The notes beneath the pieces are model-generated. The model was not told where the DNA came from. It ran no database searches and was given only the letters and a program-made list of their open reading frames with translations. A program made the position numbers and the translations under genes. A DNA stretch of 19,722 bases from a virus. Taxonomy: Duplodnaviria; Heunggongvirae; Uroviricota; Caudoviricetes. The stretch is from the IMG/VR virus record IMGVR_UViG_2537562019_000014; one strand, 5' to 3'. Of this stretch, positions 1 to 9,293 are shown piece after piece (the stretch's first letter is position 1; each line of letters starts with the position of its first letter).

Positions 1-37
1 ATTATACGCGCGTATAATGGGGAATTATGTGCTGATT
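1..37. repeat. Partial telRL (protelomerase target palindrome telO plus right flank), truncated by the window start
   Basis: Bases 1-20 ATTATACGCGCGTATAATGG are a perfect palindrome matching the recalled N15 telO core minus its first 2 bp; the following GGAATTATGTGCTGAT resembles the N15 telRL right arm; lies directly upstream of a TelN-like gene. Confidence 0.7.
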
Positions 38-200: not shown

Positions 201-2102
201 ATGAGCAAAGTAAAAATCGGTGAATTAATAAACTCACTTGTTAGCGATGTTGAGTCAATAGATAACTCTGACCGTCCTCAAGGGGAGAAAACAAAAAAAA
301 TAAAGGCTGTTGCATTAAAATTTAAAAATGCATTATTTAATGACAAGCGAAAGTTTAGGGGGAAAGGATTAGAAAAAAGAATTACAGCCAACACATTCAA
401 TGCCTATATGAGCAGGGCCAGAAAACGGTTTGATGATAAACTTCATCATAGCTTTGAAAAAAATATACATCGCCTATCTGAAAAGTATCCTTTATATAAT
501 GAGGAGCTATTGTCATGGCTTTCTCTACCTGCTGCCGATATTCGCCAGAGAATGTCAGCTTTACAGGCAAAATTAAAATTAATTCTCCCTCTATCAGAAG
601 ATTTATCTAATATCAGAATTGGCGATAACAAAAGTCATAATAAGTTATTGAAATTATCAAATAAATATAAAGAGTGGCAATTCGCCATTTCTGATTTAAC
701 TAGCGATAACTGGAAAGATAAGCGCGATTATTTATATAAATTACTACAGCAAGGATCTGCCTTACTTGAGGAGTTGAATCAGCTAAAAGTTAACCATGAG
801 ATTCTCTATCATCTTCAACTAAGCCCTGCCGAACGTGCATCTATCCAGCAACGATGGGCGGACGTTCTGCACAATAAGAAACGTAACGTGGTGGTCATTG
901 ATTACCCTAAATATATGCAAGCTATTTACGATATTATAAATAGCCCTGCTACATTAAATAATCTAAACACTCGTTCAGGTATGGCTCCTTTGGCATTTGC
1001 ACTTGCTGCATTGTCAGGAAGACGAATGATTGAGATTATGTATCAAGGTACATTTACTGTTTCTGGTAAGTATACCGTTGATTTTTTAGGCCAAGCTAAA
1101 AAAAGAACTTCTGATGATATAACCAGAAAAATATATACATTATGCGAAGCAAAAACATTTGTTTATTTAATAAATGTACTTCGCTCATGCCCAGCAGCAT
1201 CTGATTTTGATGATGTCGTTAAAGGTTATGGAGATAACGACACACGCTCTGAAAACGGACGTATTAATGCCATATTAGCAAAGGCTTTTAACCCGTGGGT
1301 TAAATCATTTTTCAAAGATGACCGCCGTGTTTATAAAGATAGTCGTGCTATTTATGCCCGTATTGCGTATGAAATGTTTTTCCGCGTAGATCCTCGTTGG
1401 AAAAACGTAGATGAAGATGTTTTCTTTATGGAAATTTTAGGCCATGACGATGAAAACACTCAATTACACTATAAGCAATTCAAGCTGGCCAACTTCTCAA
1501 AGACATGGAGGCCAAATACTGGAAACGAAAATACCAGGCTGGAAGCATTGCAGCAGCTTGATGACGAAATGCCTGGATTCGCCAGAGGAGATGCCGGGGT
1601 TCGTCTGCATAACACAGTTAAGCAGCTGGTAGAGCAGGACCCCTCTATAAAAATCACGAACAGCACTCTAAGAGCGTTCAAATTTAGCCCAACAATGATT
1701 AGTCGATACCTGGAATTTGCTGCTGATGCTCTGGGGCAATTTGTTGGCGAAAACGGACAATGGCAACTGAAAATAGATACTCCAGAAATCGTTATGCCTG
1801 ACGAAGAAGAACTGGAAGCAATACCTGAACTGGCGGATGAATTGTCAGAGGATGACGATCTGGATGACGACGAAATTGAGATAGAGGAAGAGGAAGAGGA
1901 AGAGGAAGAGAGCGTAGAAGAACAGCAACCGCCTGCACCTTCTTCGCCTGTATCTAAGCCGGTATTTAAGCCGGTGAGAAATATTGGTGATGGCTCATAC
2001 GTTGTTGAGTTTCATTATAATGGCCAGAATTATGCGTGGTCCGGCAGTGCAAACAGCCCCATGTCAGCAATGCAGTTAGCATGGCTGACATATTTCGGTT
2101 AA
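201..2102 (+). CDS. telN: Protelomerase (telomere resolvase) TelN
   Basis: 633-aa ORF with AGGAGAGG RBS; length and N-terminal sequence (MSKVKIGELIN...) closely resemble N15 TelN (631 aa) as recalled; acidic C-terminal linker (run of E encoded by GAGGAA repeats); adjacent to the telO palindrome. Confidence 0.85.
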   Translation: MSKVKIGELINSLVSDVESIDNSDRPQGEKTKKIKAVALKFKNALFNDKRKFRGKGLEKRITANTFNAYMSRARKRFDDKLHHSFEKNIHRLSEKYPLYNEELLSWLSLPAADIRQRMSALQAKLKLILPLSEDLSNIRIGDNKSHNKLLKLSNKYKEWQFAISDLTSDNWKDKRDYLYKLLQQGSALLEELNQLKVNHEILYHLQLSPAERASIQQRWADVLHNKKRNVVVIDYPKYMQAIYDIINSPATLNNLNTRSGMAPLAFALAALSGRRMIEIMYQGTFTVSGKYTVDFLGQAKKRTSDDITRKIYTLCEAKTFVYLINVLRSCPAASDFDDVVKGYGDNDTRSENGRINAILAKAFNPWVKSFFKDDRRVYKDSRAIYARIAYEMFFRVDPRWKNVDEDVFFMEILGHDDENTQLHYKQFKLANFSKTWRPNTGNENTRLEALQQLDDEMPGFARGDAGVRLHNTVKQLVEQDPSIKITNSTLRAFKFSPTMISRYLEFAADALGQFVGENGQWQLKIDTPEIVMPDEEELEAIPELADELSEDDDLDDDEIEIEEEEEEEEESVEEQQPPAPSSPVSKPVFKPVRNIGDGSYVVEFHYNGQNYAWSGSANSPMSAMQLAWLTYFG

Positions 2103-2113
2103 AGCATACAGTA

Positions 2114-2137
2114 AAGGCACCGAATTAACGGTGCCTT
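2114..2137 (+). terminator. Stem-loop after telN, possible intrinsic terminator
   Basis: AAGGCACCG-AATTAA-CGGTGCCTT perfect 9-bp stem 11 nt after the telN stop, followed by a weak GTTGTGTG tract. Confidence 0.4.
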
Positions 2138-2273
2138 GTTGTGTGACCTACCTCGCCTGCCCCCTGCAAAGGGCAGAAGTAACGGAGGAAACGCGGATGC
2201 AACCACAGACATCACCGCCCCGACTGCGAGGCTTCCCTTCTCTAAGAAGGGCATAAATTCGGGCTGGTCAACC

Positions 2274-2459
2274 CTATTTATTGGTGATTTCTGCTGGCTT
2301 TAGCTGCGCGGATAACTGCTCAAGTTTTTGAACTGCCAGTTCAAAATGCGCGGGTAAAGCATTGCAAATATCATTCGCCACAAACCACGGATCGCCGTTA
2401 ATCATCACTACACGTACCTGATGCTCTTCCTGAAAGGAAAAGACTGCTAACGCGCTCAT
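2274..2459 (-). CDS. Small protein with Bro-N-like N-terminal motif (61 aa), possibly a truncated antirepressor-family remnant
   Basis: Segment VRVVMINGDPWFVANDICNAL matches the conserved Bro-N core pattern; protein is much shorter than a full Bro-N domain. Confidence 0.4.
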   Translation of the reverse strand: MSALAVFSFQEEHQVRVVMINGDPWFVANDICNALPAHFELAVQKLEQLSAQLKPAEITNK

Positions 2460-2689
2460 TCAGCCTCCTTACCGTGCAGCAATTGCGACGAGAGCGATGC
2501 TGAATATCCCTGTGCTTCGTGTGTTAACTCACACGCAATTTGAAGGAGTTTCCCTGCTTCTGAGAGATAAATCGACGCCTCACAGCTGGAGACTGTCCGA
2601 TGGGCTGATGATACGAGCGCATAGACCTGAGCCAGACGTTCATCCAACGATTCCAGCAGGCCAACAGTGTTCATTTTTACCTGATTCAT
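2456..2689 (-). CDS. Hypothetical protein (77 aa)
   Basis: ORF with GGTGG RBS; start overlaps upstream stop and its stop overlaps the downstream start (ATGA at both junctions). Confidence 0.5.
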   Translation of the reverse strand: MNQVKMNTVGLLESLDERLAQVYALVSSAHRTVSSCEASIYLSEAGKLLQIACELTHEAQGYSASLSSQLLHGKEAE

Positions 2690-2850
2690 GCAGCCACCTC
2701 GCGCACCGGAATACGGGCAGACAATACCAGGACAAACCGGCTGGCGAACTGGCGACGAGCTTCCCGTTCAGATGACGCGATGGTGGAAAGATGATGGATG
2801 TGTGACTTTTTGTCTGTGCGAACGACTGCCGCAAATTTGAATTTGAACAT
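2686..2850 (-). CDS. Hypothetical small protein (54 aa), first gene of a coupled three-gene operon
   Basis: ATG at 2850 preceded by GGAG; stop TGA overlaps the ATG of the next ORF (ATGA); below the 60-aa cutoff of the ORF track; own translation MFKFKFAAVVRTDKK... Confidence 0.35.
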   Translation of the reverse strand: MFKFKFAAVVRTDKKSHIHHLSTIASSEREARRQFASRFVLVLSARIPVREVAA

Positions 2851-3147
2851 GGTATGCACTCCGTTTAATTGGTCGTGCTACCACCAGAGTTCTCACGCTC
2901 TTGAATGGTGGTAGCCCAAGCGGGGGTGAGAATACCGGCAAACGAAGAAACCGGCCTGACCGAAGTCAGCCCCGCCTGAGCCACCATAAATCGGATATGC
3001 GCAGGTATATACACACAAAAAAACACGCTGGCGCGTGTTGTGCGCTTCGTTTATCCGGGTTCTCACGCCCGGCTGCGGAATTTGCCGCAGCGGAGTAACT
3101 TTACCGTCAAAACGACGCACACGTCAATAATTTGCAAAGACATTTTA

Positions 3148-3167
3148 CCCCGTGACCAGTCACGGGG
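3148..3167. terminator. Strong hairpin downstream of the minus-strand operon, candidate bidirectional terminator
   Basis: CCCCGTGA-CCAG-TCACGGGG 8-bp GC-rich stem; T-rich on the plus side (GTGTTTTTA), moderately U-rich on the minus side. Confidence 0.4.
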
Positions 3168-3228: not shown

Positions 3229-3516
3229 TTACGGATTAAGAGAGTGGAAATACCTAACTAACTTACCGGCATCATCACATTTTTCTTTATCTTCTTCCTT
3301 AACATAGCCGCGACAGAAGGCTGAATAAAATTTCGCATTTTCAGAAGCAAAAGCAGCCGTCGAAAGGAGCAGTTCTTTGCATGATTCTTTTGATGCAGCA
3401 TCGGGATTATTTTTACATGCAAGCTCCGCTGATGAGTTAATAACAGAAATGCTATCTTCCTGGGCATAAACCGCAGCAGAAAAGGCAAAACATAAAACCA
3501 AAATAAAACTCTTCAC
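3229..3516 (-). CDS. Secreted/periplasmic small protein with signal peptide (95 aa from the GTG start)
   Basis: GTG at 3516 preceded by AGGAGA with 4-nt spacer; N-terminus MKSFILVLCFAFSAAVYA then QEDS looks like an SPase I signal peptide; 4 Cys in the mature part; the ORF track extends to 3540 without RBS support. Confidence 0.5.
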   Translation of the reverse strand: MKSFILVLCFAFSAAVYAQEDSISVINSSAELACKNNPDAASKESCKELLLSTAAFASENAKFYSAFCRGYVKEEDKEKCDDAGKLVRYFHSLNP

Positions 3517-3543
3517 TTTATCTCCTGTAACAGTTATCACAAC

Positions 3544-3941: not shown

Positions 3942-4267
3942 TTAACCCCACTCACCATCAGCAAACAAAGCGTTATACTCTGACAATGGTAGACGGTTGC
4001 CCTCGATGTAGAGATTCAGTTCATACTTCGTCTCCGGGTTTTCCTTGTCGGCTCGTTCCCAACGCTCAGCAGCCTCACGCGCCAATAATTCCACTGCTTT
4101 CAGATAATCCTCCGTACGGAACCAGCCAAAGATAAGGCCACGATCTGTTACAGCCCAGGCAACCTTTTTTCTTCCTCCTGGATAGCCTTAATGCGTCGAT
4201 CGCATTCATCCCGGCAAAACTGCAGCTGACGGTAATCAAGTTTGTCCAAAAATGCAGTAGTAGACAT
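3942..4267 (-). pseudogene. Hypothetical ~108-aa gene interrupted by a frameshift at an A6 tract (indel, slippage or sequencing error)
   Basis: ATG at 4267 with GGAG RBS; frame stops at 4148-4150 after 39 codons; the -1 frame is open from the A6 tract (T6 on plus, 4165-4170) to TAA at 3942-3944; one extra A would fuse both parts. Confidence 0.45.
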
Positions 4268-4271
4268 ATTT

Positions 4272-4463
4272 TTACTCCCCGTTCACCGAAAAATCACGAT
4301 AGAAACGTTTCCACATACGATAAGTCTGCGCGAGTTGTTCACCACGAAACATCGCCTTCCTGGCCTTCATGTTTTCCTTGTGAGACTTTCGATCTATGAA
4401 CCAAAACCATTGCTGGAACACACAAAGCAAGAGACACAAAGATAATATCCACTGATTACCCAT
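4272..4463 (-). CDS. Small membrane protein (63 aa) translationally coupled to repA
   Basis: ATG at 4463 overlaps the last codons of repA (TATGGGTAA); hydrophobic N-terminus WILSLCLLLCVFQQWFWFI followed by a basic tail; stop lies 4 nt before the next start. Confidence 0.45.
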   Translation of the reverse strand: MGNQWILSLCLLLCVFQQWFWFIDRKSHKENMKARKAMFRGEQLAQTYRMWKRFYRDFSVNGE

Positions 4464-7400
4464 AGAAAGCGCCCTGCTCTTCGTAGCTGCATGGGCTATT
4501 CCCGGTAATGTATTCACGTAACCGCCGCAGTTCATTGCTGGATAAGTGATCCATGAACTCTGTGAGGTACAGAGATGCAAACGTCATAGCTATGCTGGCT
4601 GATGACCATGATGACATAGTGGCCAGCTCCTCACCGGAAAGCGCACTCATCGCCCAGGACTCAGGTACAACCACTGGCAACACAGCCAAAGCCTCAGAAA
4701 TTACTGAATGAGGGGCGTTTTGAACCTGCTCGTTTGTGGATCGCGTTTTATCATCCATATATATATTGAGATCCAAATCGCGATCCATTTCGATGGCGGT
4801 CTTCTCGGCTTTACGCGTTTTCAGGGTTAGGCCATCTTTCTGACGCTGAGCAAGAATATCCAGCATAAATGCCGCTGATTCAGGCTCAACAAAACGCAAG
4901 GTTGGACGCTTATCGCCGTCTCTGCCGCGACGTTTACCTGTTTTAAGGCCAAGAGAGTCGCAAATGTTTTTAAACAACGCTTCCGGCACTTTAGGCTTCC
5001 CTTTTGGCGTCATAAAACCACCAATGTGCAGAACGTTATTCAACAGGTCACGGCGTTCGGCTGTCATGAGGTTATCTCGAGCAAATTTGAGACGCTCCTG
5101 AGTCGCCTCGCCGGTCATAGTCTCAGGGTTGATACCGCAGTCGATAAAGTACTGCCGGAGAGTTGCTGATTTAAGCGCATAGAAACCGCGCGCCCCGACT
5201 TCAACAGTAGGAGTAGCTTTTACCTTGTGATCGATTATTCCAGGGAATTTAGTTTTAAAGACATCATCAGCCTGCTCGCGAGTCATCGCGGTCACTACAA
5301 AATATTGCCACTGTCCCGCCTGACGGTATGCGTAGGTAAAATTGATGGCTGCTTCTTCCCGGTCGTAACGACGAGCTGTTACCTCATCTAAAAGCATTGT
5401 TTCATAGCGGCGAACTTTGTCTCGAGCACCATCGAAATAGAATTTCAGCGTGCCTTCTTCAACCGGTAGTTTCAGTTCGTTTTCAATATCCCAGCGGACA
5501 AGTTTTGCCTGTTCTTCAAGCGTCAGCGCGCGTTTTTTTAGCAGTTCTTCACGCTCTGATTCTTGTGGAGTTTCTGTATTGAGATGCAGATCCAGTGTCT
5601 GTTCCCACACAATATCCCGCGCTTCTTTACGCAGCTCTTTACCGATATCATTCGCAGCATAATCGGTGGCCAGCGGCGATACCTTATAACCGTCGCTGTG
5701 CATGATGCAGATCATGTTGCTGGCGTAGTCGTTACGCGCAGTCGCTTCAATAGCGGCTGCTTTAATTTTCATCCTGGTAAAGTCGGTATTGGCCACCCCC
5801 ATTGATATACGGTCGCCATCGAAAACGACATCCGTCAGTTCACCGTTCATACCTGCGGTAGCAAGCAATGCCTGGGCGAATGCTCGTTCTATTTTTTGCG
5901 GGTCAGTTTCACGTTTTGCACGAGCTTTATCAAAGCCGATAATAAATTCTTTTGCTGTACGGTCGCGGCGTAGCATTTGCACTGCGTCGCTGGGTACAAC
6001 TTCACCACAGAACATGCCGAAATGACGGTCAAAATGTTTTTGCTCAATCGACACGCCGGATGAAATAGACGGGCTATAAATCAGGCCGTCGTATTTTTTG
6101 ACCATCTTTTTCGGTTGATTGGTAAATGCTTCAACTTCTGGCTCTGGTTTGTTTTTCTGGTTTACACACAGAAATTTCTTACCAGGAAAATGCATTCTCA
6201 GGGTGGCTGTCACATCTTCTGCAAAGGTGGAGCTGTCGGTGGCCAACATGATTTTTTCGCCATCCGATACAGCTTTCACCACCTCGGTCATGATGCGATC
6301 TTTTTCTGTATAAAAAACCCGGATTGGCTCACCTGTTTCGCGGTTGCGAACATCAACAGGTAATTCAATTACGTGGATCTGCAGCCATGCCGGTAAACCT
6401 AGTTCTTCACGGCGTTTCATAGCCAGTTCAGCCAGGTCAACCAGCAGATCATTCGCATCAGCATCCACCATGATTGGGTGTTGTTCTGTTCTGGCCAGCG
6501 CGTCAATTAGCGTATTGAATACAGCCACCGGGTTTTCCATAGCCCGACCGGAAAGAACGGCACGTAGCCCTTGTGTGGCCTCGTCAAAGCCAAAATAGTC
6601 GTGCTGGCGCATCAACGGTTGCCAGCAGTTTTTAACAATCGAGTTTATGCAGATGGTCAGTTTACTGGCGTATGGAGCCATTTCCTGATAGCCAGGATCC
6701 TGATAGTGCAGGATATCGGCTTTTACACCTTTTCCTTCTGTCATCATTTCCCACAGGCCGCCAATAAGGGAGACACGGTGAGCAACAGAGATACCACGTT
6801 CTGAGCTATGCATTAACGGTCGTAACAATCCAGTAGATTTGCCGGAACCCATACCAGCACGGACGATGACTATCCCCTGTAGTGATTGCACGTACTTCAG
6901 GACATCATCGGTCATTACCGAAGTTTCAAAACGCTTATAGGTGATATGTTGAGGGCGTTTATTGGGATCAGTTATGCGTTCGCTGAAAGAGCGCGGAGCC
7001 TGGGCAATACGGCACTTTTTATTCAGGCGACGGGCAATGTGGTCTTTTACCGTAGCGCGATAGATATTTTCCAGTCCCATTTCACGCAGAACGATGCAGA
7101 ACATGTTAAATAAATCTGACGGACTGTTAGGAACCGGACAGGTTAGCATGCCAATATCCACCGCTCTCAGCAGCTCTTTGGCAAAAGTACGACGGTTATC
7201 CCGCTTAATTGTCTTCAGGCGGTTGAGCGTCAGAGATAGCAAATCAGTACCAGTTTTCAGGCGGTTTGCTGTTGCAAATAGTTGACGTGCTGTTTCACGA
7301 AGTCCACGTAGTTTGTGCAGGTCGTTGAAGTCACTGCACTCCATTTGCGGATCGTCTTCAAAAGTTGGATAGACGCAGCGGACATCGTTGAATTTCGATA

Positions 7401-8451
7401 AGATTTCATAGCCAGTCCGCAGGCCGGTATTCCCTTTTCCTTCTGTGGCAGATTTCCGGTCATTATCCAGTGCGCAGGTGATTTTTGCCGCCGGGTACAT
7501 GTTTACCAGTTGTTCCACAACATGAACCATGTTGTTAGCGGATACAGCGACAACCACAGCGTCAAAGCGTTTATCTTTTTTCGTGGCAAGCCAGATGGAT
7601 GCACCAGTAGCAAAACCTTCTGTAACAGCGATGTTTTGCGCCCCTTTCAGCTCACCGATAACAAAGCAGGCACCGACGAAATCGCCGCTGGTTACTGCGC
7701 TGGTCTGGTATTTTCCACCTTGTTTGTCGATTCGCTGCCAACCCACAATACGACCATCGTAACGACCGTCCAGGTGAGCCAGAGGGATAGCCATATACGT
7801 GGTTGGCCCCCTGCTCCATTTTGCGCTGTCGTGACTGGTCACGCGACGCACATCACACGAATTAAAAACGTCACGAATACCTTTTTTAATCGCATATGGC
7901 CATGAGCCGTCTTCTGCAGGAGCATGTTCCCACGCGCTGTGAAATGCCAGCCATCCCAGCAAACGTTCATGGTCAATTTGGTTGTTTTTCAGGTCATTAA
8001 TTCGTTTTTGTTCTTCACGGCGACGACGTGCTTCGGCCTGACGTTCTATTCTTGCCCGTTCTTCTTCCGGTTGTGCGACCACGGTCGCATTATTCCGTTG
8101 TTGCTCACGGCGATATTCAGAAAACAGGAAGGAGAAACCGCTCCATGAGCCAGCATCGCTGCCTTTATGGACGAAGTTAATGAACGGGTAATCAATCCCT
8201 TTGCTGTGTTCCAGCCGGGAGTAAATTTCTACGCGTCCTTTGAGGCTCTTCTCGAGAGCTTCTGGAGATGTTTTATTGTATGAAGAGTAACGCTCAACAC
8301 CCCCGCGAGGGTTGAGTTGGATGTTGTCGGAACAGGCAGGCCAGTTGATACCAGCCATCTGTGCCAGCTCGGTTAGTTCATCCCGTGCTGCTTCAATTAG
8401 CGAGAACGGATCGCTGCCAAAGCGATCCGCATAGAAATCGTTTAATGTCAT
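4456..8451 (-). CDS. repA: Replication protein RepA, multidomain primase-helicase
   Basis: 1331-aa ORF; Walker A motif GMGSGKST; TOPRIM-like primase region; size and position match N15 RepA (about 1324 aa) located between telN and cB. Confidence 0.85.
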   Translation of the reverse strand: MTLNDFYADRFGSDPFSLIEAARDELTELAQMAGINWPACSDNIQLNPRGGVERYSSYNKTSPEALEKSLKGRVEIYSRLEHSKGIDYPFINFVHKGSDAGSWSGFSFLFSEYRREQQRNNATVVAQPEEERARIERQAEARRRREEQKRINDLKNNQIDHERLLGWLAFHSAWEHAPAEDGSWPYAIKKGIRDVFNSCDVRRVTSHDSAKWSRGPTTYMAIPLAHLDGRYDGRIVGWQRIDKQGGKYQTSAVTSGDFVGACFVIGELKGAQNIAVTEGFATGASIWLATKKDKRFDAVVVAVSANNMVHVVEQLVNMYPAAKITCALDNDRKSATEGKGNTGLRTGYEILSKFNDVRCVYPTFEDDPQMECSDFNDLHKLRGLRETARQLFATANRLKTGTDLLSLTLNRLKTIKRDNRRTFAKELLRAVDIGMLTCPVPNSPSDLFNMFCIVLREMGLENIYRATVKDHIARRLNKKCRIAQAPRSFSERITDPNKRPQHITYKRFETSVMTDDVLKYVQSLQGIVIVRAGMGSGKSTGLLRPLMHSSERGISVAHRVSLIGGLWEMMTEGKGVKADILHYQDPGYQEMAPYASKLTICINSIVKNCWQPLMRQHDYFGFDEATQGLRAVLSGRAMENPVAVFNTLIDALARTEQHPIMVDADANDLLVDLAELAMKRREELGLPAWLQIHVIELPVDVRNRETGEPIRVFYTEKDRIMTEVVKAVSDGEKIMLATDSSTFAEDVTATLRMHFPGKKFLCVNQKNKPEPEVEAFTNQPKKMVKKYDGLIYSPSISSGVSIEQKHFDRHFGMFCGEVVPSDAVQMLRRDRTAKEFIIGFDKARAKRETDPQKIERAFAQALLATAGMNGELTDVVFDGDRISMGVANTDFTRMKIKAAAIEATARNDYASNMICIMHSDGYKVSPLATDYAANDIGKELRKEARDIVWEQTLDLHLNTETPQESEREELLKKRALTLEEQAKLVRWDIENELKLPVEEGTLKFYFDGARDKVRRYETMLLDEVTARRYDREEAAINFTYAYRQAGQWQYFVVTAMTREQADDVFKTKFPGIIDHKVKATPTVEVGARGFYALKSATLRQYFIDCGINPETMTGEATQERLKFARDNLMTAERRDLLNNVLHIGGFMTPKGKPKVPEALFKNICDSLGLKTGKRRGRDGDKRPTLRFVEPESAAFMLDILAQRQKDGLTLKTRKAEKTAIEMDRDLDLNIYMDDKTRSTNEQVQNAPHSVISEALAVLPVVVPESWAMSALSGEELATMSSWSSASIAMTFASLYLTEFMDHLSSNELRRLREYITGNSPCSYEEQGAFYG
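4737..4787. other. Candidate replication origin inside the 3' end of repA
   Basis: 9-bp inverted repeat TGGATCGCG / CGCGATCCA flanking a (TA)5 AT-rich core; three GATC sites within 50 bp; N15 ori is known to map within the 3' part of repA. Confidence 0.3.
8072..8089. repeat. SopB-type centromere-like palindrome, copy 1 (inside repA coding sequence)
   Basis: TGTGCGACCACGGTCGCA, 7-bp inverted arms with AC centre; closely resembles the F sopC SopB-binding repeat TGGGACCACGGTCCCA; one of four copies in the window. Confidence 0.55.
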
Positions 8452-8696: not shown

Positions 8697-9293
8697 TCAT
8701 CTACCCTCAACCATGAATGATTTGATCGTTCCGACTATTTGGTGAACAAATTCAAGATCGCTTTTCCTGAAGATAGCGCGTTGTGAGTTTGTTCCATCCA
8801 GATAGTAATTTTCATCATCAAAACGGGCTAGGCGCTGGATAGTGATATTTCCTGCAGTATCACGAACCAGAACATCCTCGCCGGGGACCAGTTCCAGCGC
8901 AGAATCGACCAGGAGAAAATCGCCTGGCTGATAGTTTCCCTGCGTAAGATTGCTGATAGTTAACGCATACACAGTATTGCGCTGGCTGATGAATGGCAGG
9001 AATCGCTCAGTATTTGGAACCTGTCCCGGCTTCCACTCTTCATCAGGCCCACTTTCAGTTGTGCCAATAACAGGAATGCGATCAGGGTCATATTCTGTCC
9101 CATATAGCACCCAATGTACTGGCTTGCGTAAGCACTTAGCCAGGGCAATACCTATCTCCAGTGACGGCATTACGTCGCCACGTTCTAAGTTTTGGACGCC
9201 TGCTATAGAGATATCGACAGCCTCAGCAACTTCTCGCAACGTCAGCTTCATCTCTAAACGGCGTGCTTTCAGTCGTTCGCCTCGTGTTTTCAT
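8697..9293 (-). CDS. cB: CI-like prophage repressor (HTH N-terminal domain, LexA/CI-type C-terminal domain)
   Basis: 198-aa ORF divergent from a cro-like gene with operator palindromes between them; N-terminal XRE-type HTH (LTLREVAEAVDISIAGVQNLERG); position matches N15 cB. Confidence 0.8.
   Translation of the reverse strand: MKTRGERLKARRLEMKLTLREVAEAVDISIAGVQNLERGDVMPSLEIGIALAKCLRKPVHWVLYGTEYDPDRIPVIGTTESGPDEEWKPGQVPNTERFLPFISQRNTVYALTISNLTQGNYQPGDFLLVDSALELVPGEDVLVRDTAGNITIQRLARFDDENYYLDGTNSQRAIFRKSDLEFVHQIVGTIKSFMVEGR

What the first reader, a model, noticed from the sequence alone, without database searches (positions are those of the whole stretch)
2274..2850. Three overlapping small genes (54, 77, 61 aa) downstream of telN, the last with a truncated Bro-N motif
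The three ORFs are joined by ATGA overlaps and form one compact operon. The last carries the Bro-N core (INGDPWFVANDICNAL) but is far too short for a full domain. It may be a decayed antirepressor or a miniaturised regulatory module. It is preceded by a 290-bp non-coding stretch rich in hairpins (2860-3147).
Basis: seen in the sequence. Interest (0 to 1): 0.45.

Follow-up and report, generated by a model that had tools for sequence, protein, structure and literature searches.

The report
N15-type antirepressor operon, truncated antB
The three small genes are the already-described "anti-immunity" (immA) operon of an N15-like linear phage-plasmid, controlled by a C4-type antisense RNA in the "hairpin-rich" spacer. 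The odd 61-aa last gene is what remains of a 257-aa Bro-N gene (antB) after a clean 588-bp in-frame deletion, so this is ordinary and explained.

Summary
On the minus strand, convergent with telN, lie three ORFs: 2850..2686 (54 aa), 2689..2456 (77 aa) and 2459..2274 (61 aa). They are joined by ATGA overlaps and follow a strongly structured leader. They are orthologues of phage N15 genes 32/31/30, the immA operon icd-antA-antB. The leader holds, above Rfam gathering scores, a C4 antisense RNA (2991..2904) and an isrK/a1b1 target leader with terminator (3091..3018). A second target pair lies downstream, and its a2 element covers the icd Shine-Dalgarno. Across eight N15-like phages, the C4 loop b' and both targets change together; b'-b2 is paired in 56 of 56 cells. 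The 61-aa ORF is an internal in-frame deletion allele of antB. A 99.8%-identical plasmid has a 257-aa gene there; the window lacks codons 36-231, with the junction at 2357/2358 on TAA microhomology. Only 23 of 96 Bro-N profile positions remain, below Pfam's threshold. The allele is real (89 contigs) but its sampled carriers are ≥98.4% identical, differing mostly by one telN repeat indel. A second, independent 54-aa antB stub dominates E. coli N15-like plasmids. AntA is the reported antirepressor and AntB is called auxiliary or of unknown role, so the operon probably still works. Low novelty.

The parts
3098..3127 (-). Candidate promoter Pa of the operon: -35 TTGACG (3127..3122), 18-nt spacer, -10 TAAAGT (3103..3098). 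The inferred start is about 3091, the first base of the isrK model match.
   Evidence: Consensus scan. The -35 box and spacer region are invariant or nearly so across 8 N15-like leaders. The function is inferred, not shown.
3018..3091 (-). IsrK-like leader RNA. It carries the upstream C4 targets b1 (GUGAGAA, 3066..3060, in a hairpin loop) and a1 (UAAACGAAG, 3053..3045).
   Evidence: Rfam isrK RF01394 scores 68.1 bits (gathering 50). c4-a1b1 RF03163 scores 48.8 bits (gathering 46.7) at 3104..3052. Complementarity to the C4 loops is shown.
3015..3039 (-). Intrinsic terminator Ta: AACACGCGCCAGCGUGUU followed by a U-run. It lies between the a1/b1 targets and the C4 RNA.
   Evidence: Terminator scan. 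N15 has an annotated 'putative rho-indep. transcription terminator' at the homologous place, as does phiKO2. The element is invariant in alignment A3.
2904..2991 (-). C4-family antisense RNA, the orthologue of N15 CA RNA. Its loop a' is CUUCGUUUG (2947..2939) and its single-stranded b' is UUCUCAC (2932..2926).
   Evidence: Rfam C4 RF01695 scores 82.2 bits (gathering 45), E=4e-15, over the full model 1-87. The same RNA is found in N15, phiKO2, PY54 and others.
2859..2896 (-). Downstream C4 targets: b2 GUGAGAA (2896..2890, in a hairpin loop) and a2 UAAACGGAG (2867..2859). The a2 element contains the icd Shine-Dalgarno GGAG (2862..2859), 8 nt before the ATG at 2850.
   Evidence: Seen in the sequence. 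Duplex search. b'-b2 is paired in 56/56 cells; 4 of 7 pairs have compensatory changes; 0/500 shuffles reach the covariation score.
2686..2850 (-). icd, a host cell-division inhibitor Icd-like protein of 54 aa.
   Evidence: NCBIfam NF033153 phage_ICD_like scores 67 bits against a cut-off of 25. It is 94% identical to the C-terminal 54 aa of N15 gp32. The same CDS is annotated in RefSeq relatives.
2456..2689 (-). antA, 77 aa, the orthologue of the N15 antirepressor AntA (gp31). It is predicted to be a two-helix hairpin.
   Evidence: It is 62% identical to N15 gp31, E=1e-30. It matches phrog_6301 (2e-36) and phrog_10889 'anti-repressor' (2e-18). The phiKO2 record calls its homologue 'similar to antirepressor ... 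N15 AntA'. The AF2 model has helices at 2-32 and 36-73, pLDDT 78. Homologues occur only in N15-like phages, 14 records.
2274..2459 (-). antB deletion allele, 61 aa: residues 1-35 and 232-257 of a 257-aa Bro-N protein fused in frame. The junction is at 2357/2358, within TAA microhomology (2355..2357).
   Evidence: Alignment with CP088379.1 shows a single 588-bp gap and identical flanks. Translations are and the protein alignment. Full-length AntB has a complete Bro-N domain (74.7 bits, positions 1-96) whereas the remnant keeps positions 1-23 (22.2 bits). The exact protein is on 89 contigs.
2114..2137 (.). Hairpin AAGGCACCG-AATTAA-CGGTGCCTT between the convergent telN and antB. It is probably a shared bidirectional terminator.
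   Evidence: RNA fold of 2280..2095. phiKO2 annotates a 'terminator, putative bidirectional' at the same place.

Best explanation
The locus 2274-3127 (minus strand) is the secondary-immunity, or anti-immunity, operon immA of an N15-like linear phage-plasmid. Its order is Pa promoter, leader with targets a1/b1, terminator Ta, C4-type 'CA' antisense RNA, targets a2/b2, then icd, antA and antB. In a lysogen, the roughly 88-nt C4/CA RNA processed from the leader pairs through its a' and b' elements with a1/b1 and a2/b2 on new transcripts. This favours termination at Ta and masks the icd ribosome-binding site. Because icd, antA and antB are translationally coupled by ATGA overlaps, the whole operon stays silent. 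When control fails or is out-titrated, Icd blocks cell division and AntA antagonises the primary repressor CB, which is encoded in the same window at 8697..9293. The result is lytic growth. The third gene has lost codons 36-231 through one microhomology-mediated 588-bp in-frame deletion. That deletion removes three quarters of the Bro-N domain and the conserved central part of the protein. The 61-aa product is most likely an inactive remnant. It is tolerated because AntB is only auxiliary, and its 5' end persists because it overlaps the end of antA. What is shown here: gene and RNA identities, the deletion, and covariation between the RNA and its targets. What is inferred from N15, P1 and P4 work: RNA processing, termination and translational repression, AntA acting on CB, and the remnant being inactive.
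For: Context. The window carries telN (201..2102), repA (4456..8451), and a CB-like repressor, Cro-like and Q-like genes, so it is the N15 right arm. The locus is syntenic with N15 genes 30-32 at 74% nucleotide identity, and with phiKO2 gp27-29. The phiKO2 record annotates those genes as AntB 'auxiliary anti-repressor', AntA 'antirepressor' and icd.

RNA elements. C4, isrK and c4-a1b1 all score above their gathering thresholds, and the same trio occurs in 7-8 relatives. The b' element co-varies with b1 (89% of cells paired, 4 compensatory pairs) and with b2 (100% paired, 4 compensatory pairs), against 23-61% paired when the partner is slid. The a' loop is complementary to a1 and a2 over 7-10 nt in most relatives; PY54 and the LR883007 plasmid are exceptions for a2. 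Where it pairs, a2 ends 8-13 nt before the ATG. The minimum-free-energy fold of the leader pairs a1/b1 with a'/b' in cis, z=-5.2.

Proteins. Icd matches NF033153 at 67 bits. AntA is 62% identical to N15 gp31.

Deletion. There is a single 588-bp gap relative to a 99.8%-identical plasmid. The deleted part is the most conserved region of AntB between E. coli and Klebsiella homologues.

Literature. immA is described as icd, antA and antB, with the function of antB 'not elucidated' (PMC4488713, PMC10612081).

Dispensability. An independent 54-aa antB stub is present in 13 of the 17 complete E. coli genomes that carry this locus, and in the deposited phage PhiR46_1.
Against: No expression or functional data exist for this element. 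The original N15 papers (Ravin 1999; Mardanov & Ravin 2007) could not be read here, so the exact roles of AntA, AntB and Ta are taken second-hand and from memory.

The promoter and terminator are consensus matches only.

The remnant keeps a strong SD, its start codon, its reading frame and its native stop, so it is probably still translated. Inactivity is therefore inferred, not shown.

In the sister 54-aa stub, segregating changes are 4 synonymous to 3 non-synonymous (pN/pS about 0.2). This hints weakly at constraint, but it is underpowered and all three non-synonymous changes sit in a single record.
Confidence: 0.88

Rival explanations
1. The 61-aa product is a functional mini-protein, a 'miniaturised regulatory module'. 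One version is a Bro-N beta-hairpin fused to the C-terminal helix that still binds AntB's partner and acts as a modulator or dominant-negative. Another version is that translation of the stub is needed for antA expression or mRNA stability.
For: The deletion is exactly in frame and keeps the SD, the start codon, the ATGA coupling and the native C-terminus and stop. The allele persists on 89 contigs from independent genomes and metagenomes. A second, independent truncation (54 aa) keeps the same N-terminal segment and is the majority allele in E. coli. That stub shows 4 synonymous to 3 non-synonymous segregating sites.
Against: Only 23 of 96 Bro-N positions remain, below the Pfam threshold. The conserved core of AntB is gone. 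The AF2 model is poor, pLDDT 54. All sampled carriers are one lineage with ≥98.4% identity across telN, and the 186-bp ORF is identical in all of them, so persistence carries little information. An in-frame outcome has a 1-in-3 prior. Retention of the 5' end follows from the overlap with antA. The two stubs share no C-terminal part. The pN/pS count is too small to mean much.
Confidence: 0.08
2. The short third gene is an assembly or sequencing artefact, and the real element has full-length antB.
For: No complete E. coli RefSeq genome (0 of 5,426) and no PLSDB plasmid contains the deletion junction. The closest finished plasmid has the full 257-aa gene. The window does contain one probable homopolymer error or frameshift elsewhere, at about 4155.
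Against: The exact 61-aa protein is indexed in 166 blocks and on 89 contigs. These come from NCBI draft genomes and from ENA and JGI metagenomes. Ten loci were fetched, and all show the identical 186-bp ORF in the same context.
Confidence: 0.01
3. The operon as a whole is a decaying, non-functional relic of a defective plasmid-prophage, not only its antB gene.
For: antB is deleted. A neighbouring 108-aa gene is frameshifted in the window. One carrier (L006) has a further deletion that removes C4 and the 5' end of icd.
Against: icd and antA are intact, identical among carriers, and conserved mostly by synonymous change across the sister lineage: antA 15 synonymous to 5 non-synonymous, icd 4 to 1. 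The C4 RNA, both target pairs, the promoter and the terminator are all intact with perfect b pairing. The rest of the right arm, including repA, cB, cro, Q, endolysin and terminase, has full-length ORFs.
Confidence: 0.05

Closest known systems
Phage N15 immA (anti-immunity) locus: Pa, CA RNA, icd (within gene 32), antA (gene 31), antB (gene 30). Source: Ravin, Svarchevsky & Deho 1999, Mol Microbiol 34:980, as cited in PMC4488713.
   Same: Same position between telN and repA, same orientation and same gene order. The same leader elements are present: isrK/a1b1, terminator and C4 RNA. Icd is 94% identical and AntA 62%. The N- and C-termini of AntB are recognisable.
   Different: antB lacks codons 36-231 (61 aa against 264 aa in N15). 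Nucleotide identity is only about 74%. The C4 specificity elements differ: b is GUGAGAA here and UCUCAAC in N15; a is AAACGAAG here and ACAAGAAG in N15. The two elements should therefore not cross-regulate.
Phage P1/P7 immI operon: c4 antisense RNA, icd, ant1/ant2. Sources: Citron & Schuster 1990; Riedel et al. 1993, cited in PMC8201110.
   Same: A C4-family RNA is made from the same transcript it controls. There are two target pairs, a1/b1 and a2/b2, with one covering the icd ribosome-binding site. An Icd-like first ORF is coupled to the antirepressor gene(s). Specificity classes are set by a'/b' (the P1 mechanism is from the literature and memory).
   Different: The antirepressor here is the small helical AntA plus a Bro-N AntB remnant, not P1 Ant1/2. 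An intrinsic terminator lies between a1/b1 and C4, as in N15 and P4. The repressor it targets is a lambda-CI-like CB, not P1 C1.
Satellite phage P4 immunity: CI RNA with seqA/seqB/seqC, acting by premature termination.
   Same: The leader shows DNA similarity to the P4 cI region, 77% over about 235 nt. The proposed mode of action is RNA-induced premature termination (from memory of P4 and N15 work).
   Different: P4 controls its replication and alpha operon, not an icd-ant operon. The ORF called 'ash/cI' over the RNA is an annotation relic.
Salmonella Gifsy-1 isrK-orf45-anrP locus (PMC4825925).
   Same: The leader matches the isrK covariance model at 68 bits. A short terminated leader RNA is followed by a small ORF coupled by ATGA to an antirepressor-like gene. 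An approximately 80-nt processed RNA lies in between.
   Different: In Gifsy-1 the short IsrK RNA acts in trans as an activator of orf45/anrP translation. Whether the leader RNA here does the same is untested. The downstream genes differ.
Bro-N domain proteins (Pfam PF02498), including prophage 'antirepressor' proteins.
   Same: The remnant derives from a bona fide Bro-N protein: the parent allele scores 74.7 bits over profile positions 1-96.
   Different: The remnant keeps only positions 1-23 and scores below threshold. It cannot form the domain.

Membership tests
C4-RNA-controlled icd-ant anti-immunity operon (N15 immA / P1 immI type) | A C4-family antisense RNA is encoded in the leader, on the same strand as the operon. 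| tested here: met
   RF01695 scores 82.2 bits against a gathering score of 45, over the full-length model, at 2991..2904 (-).
C4-RNA-controlled icd-ant anti-immunity operon (N15 immA / P1 immI type) | There are two sets of target sequences (a1/b1 upstream, a2/b2 downstream) complementary to the C4 loops, and the downstream set overlaps the ribosome-binding site of the first ORF. | tested here: met
   RF03163 scores 48.8 bits. 9-nt a duplexes form with both targets, and a2 contains the SD GGAG, 8 nt from the ATG. The b pairs co-vary in 8 relatives.
C4-RNA-controlled icd-ant anti-immunity operon (N15 immA / P1 immI type) | The first ORF is Icd-like. | tested here: met
   NF033153 scores 67 bits against a cut-off of 25. 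It is 94% identical to N15 Icd.
C4-RNA-controlled icd-ant anti-immunity operon (N15 immA / P1 immI type) | The antirepressor gene is translationally coupled downstream of icd. | tested here: met
   ATGA overlap at 2689..2686. AntA is 62% identical to N15 gp31. The phiKO2 annotation names the homologue as AntA-like.
C4-RNA-controlled icd-ant anti-immunity operon (N15 immA / P1 immI type) | The RNA is processed from the leader and represses the operon by termination and/or translational block; the product inactivates the primary repressor. | not testable with these tools
   This needs Northern blots or RNA-seq, reporter fusions and repressor-binding assays. A CB-like repressor gene is present at 8697..9293.
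N15 AntB (gp30) orthologue | A full-length protein of about 257-264 aa with a complete Bro-N domain and the conserved central and C-terminal region. | tested here: not met
   Only residues 1-35 and 232-257 remain, after a 588-bp deletion. Descent from antB is shown by identical flanks and synteny.
Bro-N domain (Pfam PF02498) | Score at or above the gathering threshold, covering the domain. | tested here: not met
   22.2 bits, below 25.6, over profile positions 1-23 of 96. The parent allele scores 74.7 bits over positions 1-96.
IsrK sRNA (Rfam RF01394) | A match to the covariance model above the gathering score, ending in an intrinsic terminator. | tested here: met
   68.1 bits against 50, at 3091..3018. 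The terminator is at 3039..3015. Hfq binding and trans-activation were not testable.

The most novel reading that the evidence does not exclude
Loss of the body of AntB is adaptive in Escherichia N15-like phage-plasmids, and the retained N-terminal stub is kept by selection. Supporting this, two independent truncations exist (the 61-aa in-frame allele here and the widespread 54-aa allele), and both keep the SD, the start codon and at least 35 codons. The stub could act as a micro-protein or as a translated spacer needed for antA expression. Losing the Bro-N body could tune spontaneous induction or avoid a host defence that senses it.
Probability: 0.08. Interest if true: 0.35.

Novelty: new member of a known kind. 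Interest (0 to 1): 0.15.

Why it matters
This matters mainly for annotation. It shows that a puzzling 'BRO family, N-terminal domain protein' of 61 aa, and the 54-aa 'BRO family protein' common in E. coli and Shigella N15-like plasmids, are deletion remnants of antB inside an otherwise intact immA operon. It also shows that the 'ash family protein' CDS called upstream lies on a C4-type RNA gene.

There is some biological content. AntB appears dispensable in natural Escherichia telomere phages, which agrees with its reported auxiliary or unknown role. The C4 RNA and its targets fall into at least four co-varying specificity classes among N15-like elements, which would define heteroimmunity groups.

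None of this changes current understanding of the system.

Tried and rejected
(1) Assembly artefact. The junction is absent from complete E. coli genomes and from PLSDB, but the exact protein lies on 89 contigs and ten fetched loci are identical. Rejected.

(2) Weak family hits. These were Pfam LtuB for the 57-aa form of icd (E=0.004, 18 bits, below the cut-off of 25), Img2, NCBIfam XseB and SoxR. All are below their cut-offs and were treated as chance.

(3) The 92-aa ORF on the + strand (2497..2775), antisense to icd/antA. It matches no PHROG family and was treated as a shadow ORF.

(4) The GTG start at 2859 (57 aa). It lies inside the SD and relatives annotate the ATG at 2850. Rejected.

(5) Selection test on antB stubs. 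The 61-aa allele offers no diversity. The 54-aa allele gives 4 synonymous to 3 non-synonymous sites. Inconclusive.

(6) Structure prediction. The single-sequence AF2 model of the remnant has pLDDT 54 and is uninformative. AntA is predicted as a two-helix hairpin, too generic to justify a fold search. The PDB sequence search for AntA found nothing.

(7) Literature. The primary N15 papers (Ravin 1999; Mardanov & Ravin 2007, PMC1951935) are not held. Nothing was found on PhiR46_1 or on antB truncation.

(8) One cluster look-up was wasted on wrong coordinates and repeated correctly.

Full report
**What is in the sequence.** The window is the right arm of an N15-like linear phage-plasmid.
- It carries telN (201..2102, +), a large RepA-type gene (4456..8451, -) and a CI-like repressor (8697..9293, -).
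- It also carries Cro-like and Q-like genes, an endolysin and a small terminase.
- The ATGA stop/start overlaps sit at 2689..2686 and 2459..2456, and each gene has a Shine-Dalgarno sequence.
- The 5' flank is non-coding and far more structured than shuffled controls (z = -5.2, 0 of 200 shuffles).

**Identity of the genes.** DNA searches place the locus in synteny with phage N15 genes 32-31-30 (74% identity) and with phiKO2 gp29-28-27. Many Escherichia, Klebsiella and Enterobacter plasmids also match.
- The 54-aa protein matches NCBIfam phage_ICD_like (67 bits, cut-off 25). It is 94% identical to the C-terminal 54 aa of N15 gp32.
- The 77-aa protein is 62% identical to N15 gp31. It matches phrog_6301 and phrog_10889 'anti-repressor'.
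- Homologues of the 77-aa protein occur only in N15-like phages within a 50,697-record phage collection. It has no Pfam, NCBIfam or PDB relative and is predicted to be a two-helix hairpin.
- The phiKO2 GenBank record names the three homologues icd, antirepressor AntA and auxiliary anti-repressor AntB.
- Two reviews of telomere phages describe immA as an operon of icd, antA and antB, with the function of AntB 'not elucidated' (PMC4488713, PMC10612081).

**The 'hairpin-rich' spacer.** Rfam finds three elements above their gathering scores on the operon strand:
- a C4 antisense RNA at 2991..2904 (82 bits);
- an isrK-type leader at 3091..3018 (68 bits);
- the a1/b1 target motif at 3104..3052 (49 bits).

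A sigma-70-like promoter (TTGACG-18-TAAAGT, 3127..3098) sits just upstream of the first base of the isrK match. An intrinsic terminator (3039..3015) separates the a1/b1 targets from C4, as annotated in N15 and phiKO2.

In the C4 RNA, loop a' (CUUCGUUUG) and the single-stranded b' (UUCUCAC) are complementary to two target sets.
- Upstream: b1 GUGAGAA (3066..3060) and a1 UAAACGAAG (3053..3045).
- Downstream: b2 GUGAGAA (2896..2890) and a2 UAAACGGAG (2867..2859). The a2 element contains the icd SD GGAG, 8 nt before the ATG.

**Comparative test of the RNA model.** The same leader architecture is found in N15, PhiR46_1, two E. coli plasmids, phiKO2, KpLi5 and PY54.
- In an eight-sequence alignment, the b' heptamer and both targets change together through four classes: GUGAGAA, UCUCAAC, UCGCAA and GUAGGAA.
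- b'-b2 is paired in 56 of 56 cells, with compensatory changes at 4 of 7 pairs.
- b1-b' is paired in 89% of cells; the failures come from one row that is shifted in the alignment.
- Sliding the partner by 1-3 columns drops pairing to 23-61%.
- The a' loop also co-varies with a1 and a2 in most relatives; PY54 and the LR883007 plasmid are exceptions for a2.

This is good comparative evidence that the RNA-RNA contacts are functional. They work as in P1 immI (the c4 RNA blocks the icd RBS; cited in PMC8201110) and in N15 immA, where a CA RNA processed from the leader controls the operon (title and citation; details from memory). The relation to Gifsy-1 isrK-orf45-anrP is at the level of the leader RNA model and the ATGA-coupled small ORF (PMC4825925).

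**The truncated Bro-N gene.** The closest finished plasmid is CP088379.1, 99.8% identical to the window. It carries a 774-bp, 257-aa gene where the window has 186 bp.
- Pairwise alignment shows one gap of 588 bp (196 codons) and otherwise identical flanks.
- The junction is at window 2357/2358, within a TAA shared by both breakpoints. Around it lies an imperfect repeat that encodes D[IL]xxAL on both sides.
- The product is therefore residues 1-35 fused in frame to residues 232-257.
- Full-length AntB has a complete Bro-N domain (74.7 bits, profile positions 1-96). The remnant keeps positions 1-23 and scores 22.2 bits, under the 25.6 threshold.
- The deleted part is the most conserved region between the E. 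coli, N15 and Klebsiella proteins.
- A single-sequence AF2 model of the remnant is of low confidence: pLDDT 54, a beta-hairpin plus one helix.

**Is the allele real, and how common is it?**
- The junction is absent from 5,426 complete E. coli genomes and from 72,556 PLSDB plasmids.
- The exact 61-aa protein is nevertheless recorded on 89 contigs, from draft E. coli genomes and from ENA and JGI metagenomes. Its parental 257-aa allele is on 244 contigs.
- Ten carriers were fetched. All have an identical 186-bp ORF and are ≥98.4% identical to the window across telN, the lowest value reflecting one indel in the acidic repeat. This is one deletion event in one lineage, not an artefact.
- A second, independent truncation exists. 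Phage PhiR46_1 and many plasmids carry a 54-aa stub that runs into the telN-side intergenic region.
- The 54-aa stub is on more than 1,000 contigs. It is in 13 of the 17 complete E. coli genomes that carry this locus; four have full-length antB.
- Klebsiella elements keep full-length antB.

**Does the stub matter?** In ten loci with the 54-aa allele, the segregating sites were counted as synonymous to non-synonymous.

| Gene | Synonymous | Non-synonymous |
|---|---|---|
| antB stub (54 aa) | 4 | 3 |
| antA | 15 | 5 |
| icd | 4 | 1 |

All three non-synonymous changes in the stub occur in one record, which also has a frameshifted telN. The count is too small to separate constraint from recent descent. 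Retention of the first codons is expected anyway, because they overlap the end of antA and carry its stop codon. I therefore rate the 'functional mini-protein' reading as possible but unlikely (about 0.08).

**Conclusion.** The finding is the known immA/immI-type anti-immunity module in an uncharacterised N15 relative.
- Its RNA control region, icd and antA are intact.
- Its antB is gutted by a microhomology-mediated in-frame deletion.
'Miniaturised regulatory module' is not supported.
- The suggested sRNA in the spacer is real and belongs to a curated family.
- Novelty is low: this is a new member of a known kind, and interest is 0.15.

Noticed in passing
window 2859-3066; loci L002, L004, L005, L021, L024, L025, L026 (alignment A3): The C4 RNA b' element and its two targets fall into four co-varying specificity classes among N15-like elements: GUGAGAA, UCUCAAC, UCGCAA and GUAGGAA. 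The a' loop varies independently of b: the window and LR883007 share b but differ in a. This suggests heteroimmunity groups reshuffled by recombination.
   Followed up: partly
window 3942-4267 (-), homopolymer near 4155: A 108-aa gene (phrog_10878; intact in L001 and in L007-L015) is split into 39-aa and 50-aa ORFs by a 1-bp loss in an A7 run. This is either a frameshift or a sequencing error.
   Followed up: yes
window 1-18: The window starts inside the telomere palindrome ATTATACGCGCGTATAAT. Contigs L008 and L009 continue past this point as an inverted copy of telN, which means the assembly read through the covalently closed hairpin end.
   Followed up: partly
window ~1880-1915 (telN acidic GAA/GAG repeat): The length of the Glu-rich repeat in TelN varies (629-643 aa) among carriers that are otherwise nearly identical.
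   Followed up: no
L006 3556-3679 (ENA metagenome scaffold carrying the same 61-aa allele): A further deletion removes most of the leader, including the C4 RNA, and the first 69 nt of icd. This is another decay event in the same locus.
   Followed up: no
L015 734-2423 (GCA_000356745.2): An IS200/IS605-family element (Y1 transposase plus TnpB/OrfB) is inserted in the gene cluster upstream of immA, in a carrier that is otherwise 100% identical to the window over telN-immA.
   Followed up: no
window 2865-2987 equivalent; L001 2854-2976, L003 2863-2985: RefSeq and GenBank annotate an 'ash family protein' CDS (Pfam Phage_ASH) directly on top of the C4 RNA gene. N15 gene 32 is likewise annotated 96 aa long, reaching into the RNA. 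Both are probably over-calls of an RNA gene.
   Followed up: partly
window 3229-3540 (-): The gene just upstream of Pa encodes a protein of 103 aa, or 95 aa from the annotated start, matching phrog_26765. The PhiR46_1 record labels it 'Spackle exclusion protein'. It is followed by a perfect hairpin, CCCCGTGACTGGTCACGGGG (3167..3148).
   Followed up: no
window 2099-2254 (-): A 51-aa ORF in the telN-antB intergenic region matches phrog_35352 (E=9e-25). Most of this stretch is deleted in the 54-aa-allele lineage, so it is probably dispensable or not a gene.
   Followed up: no
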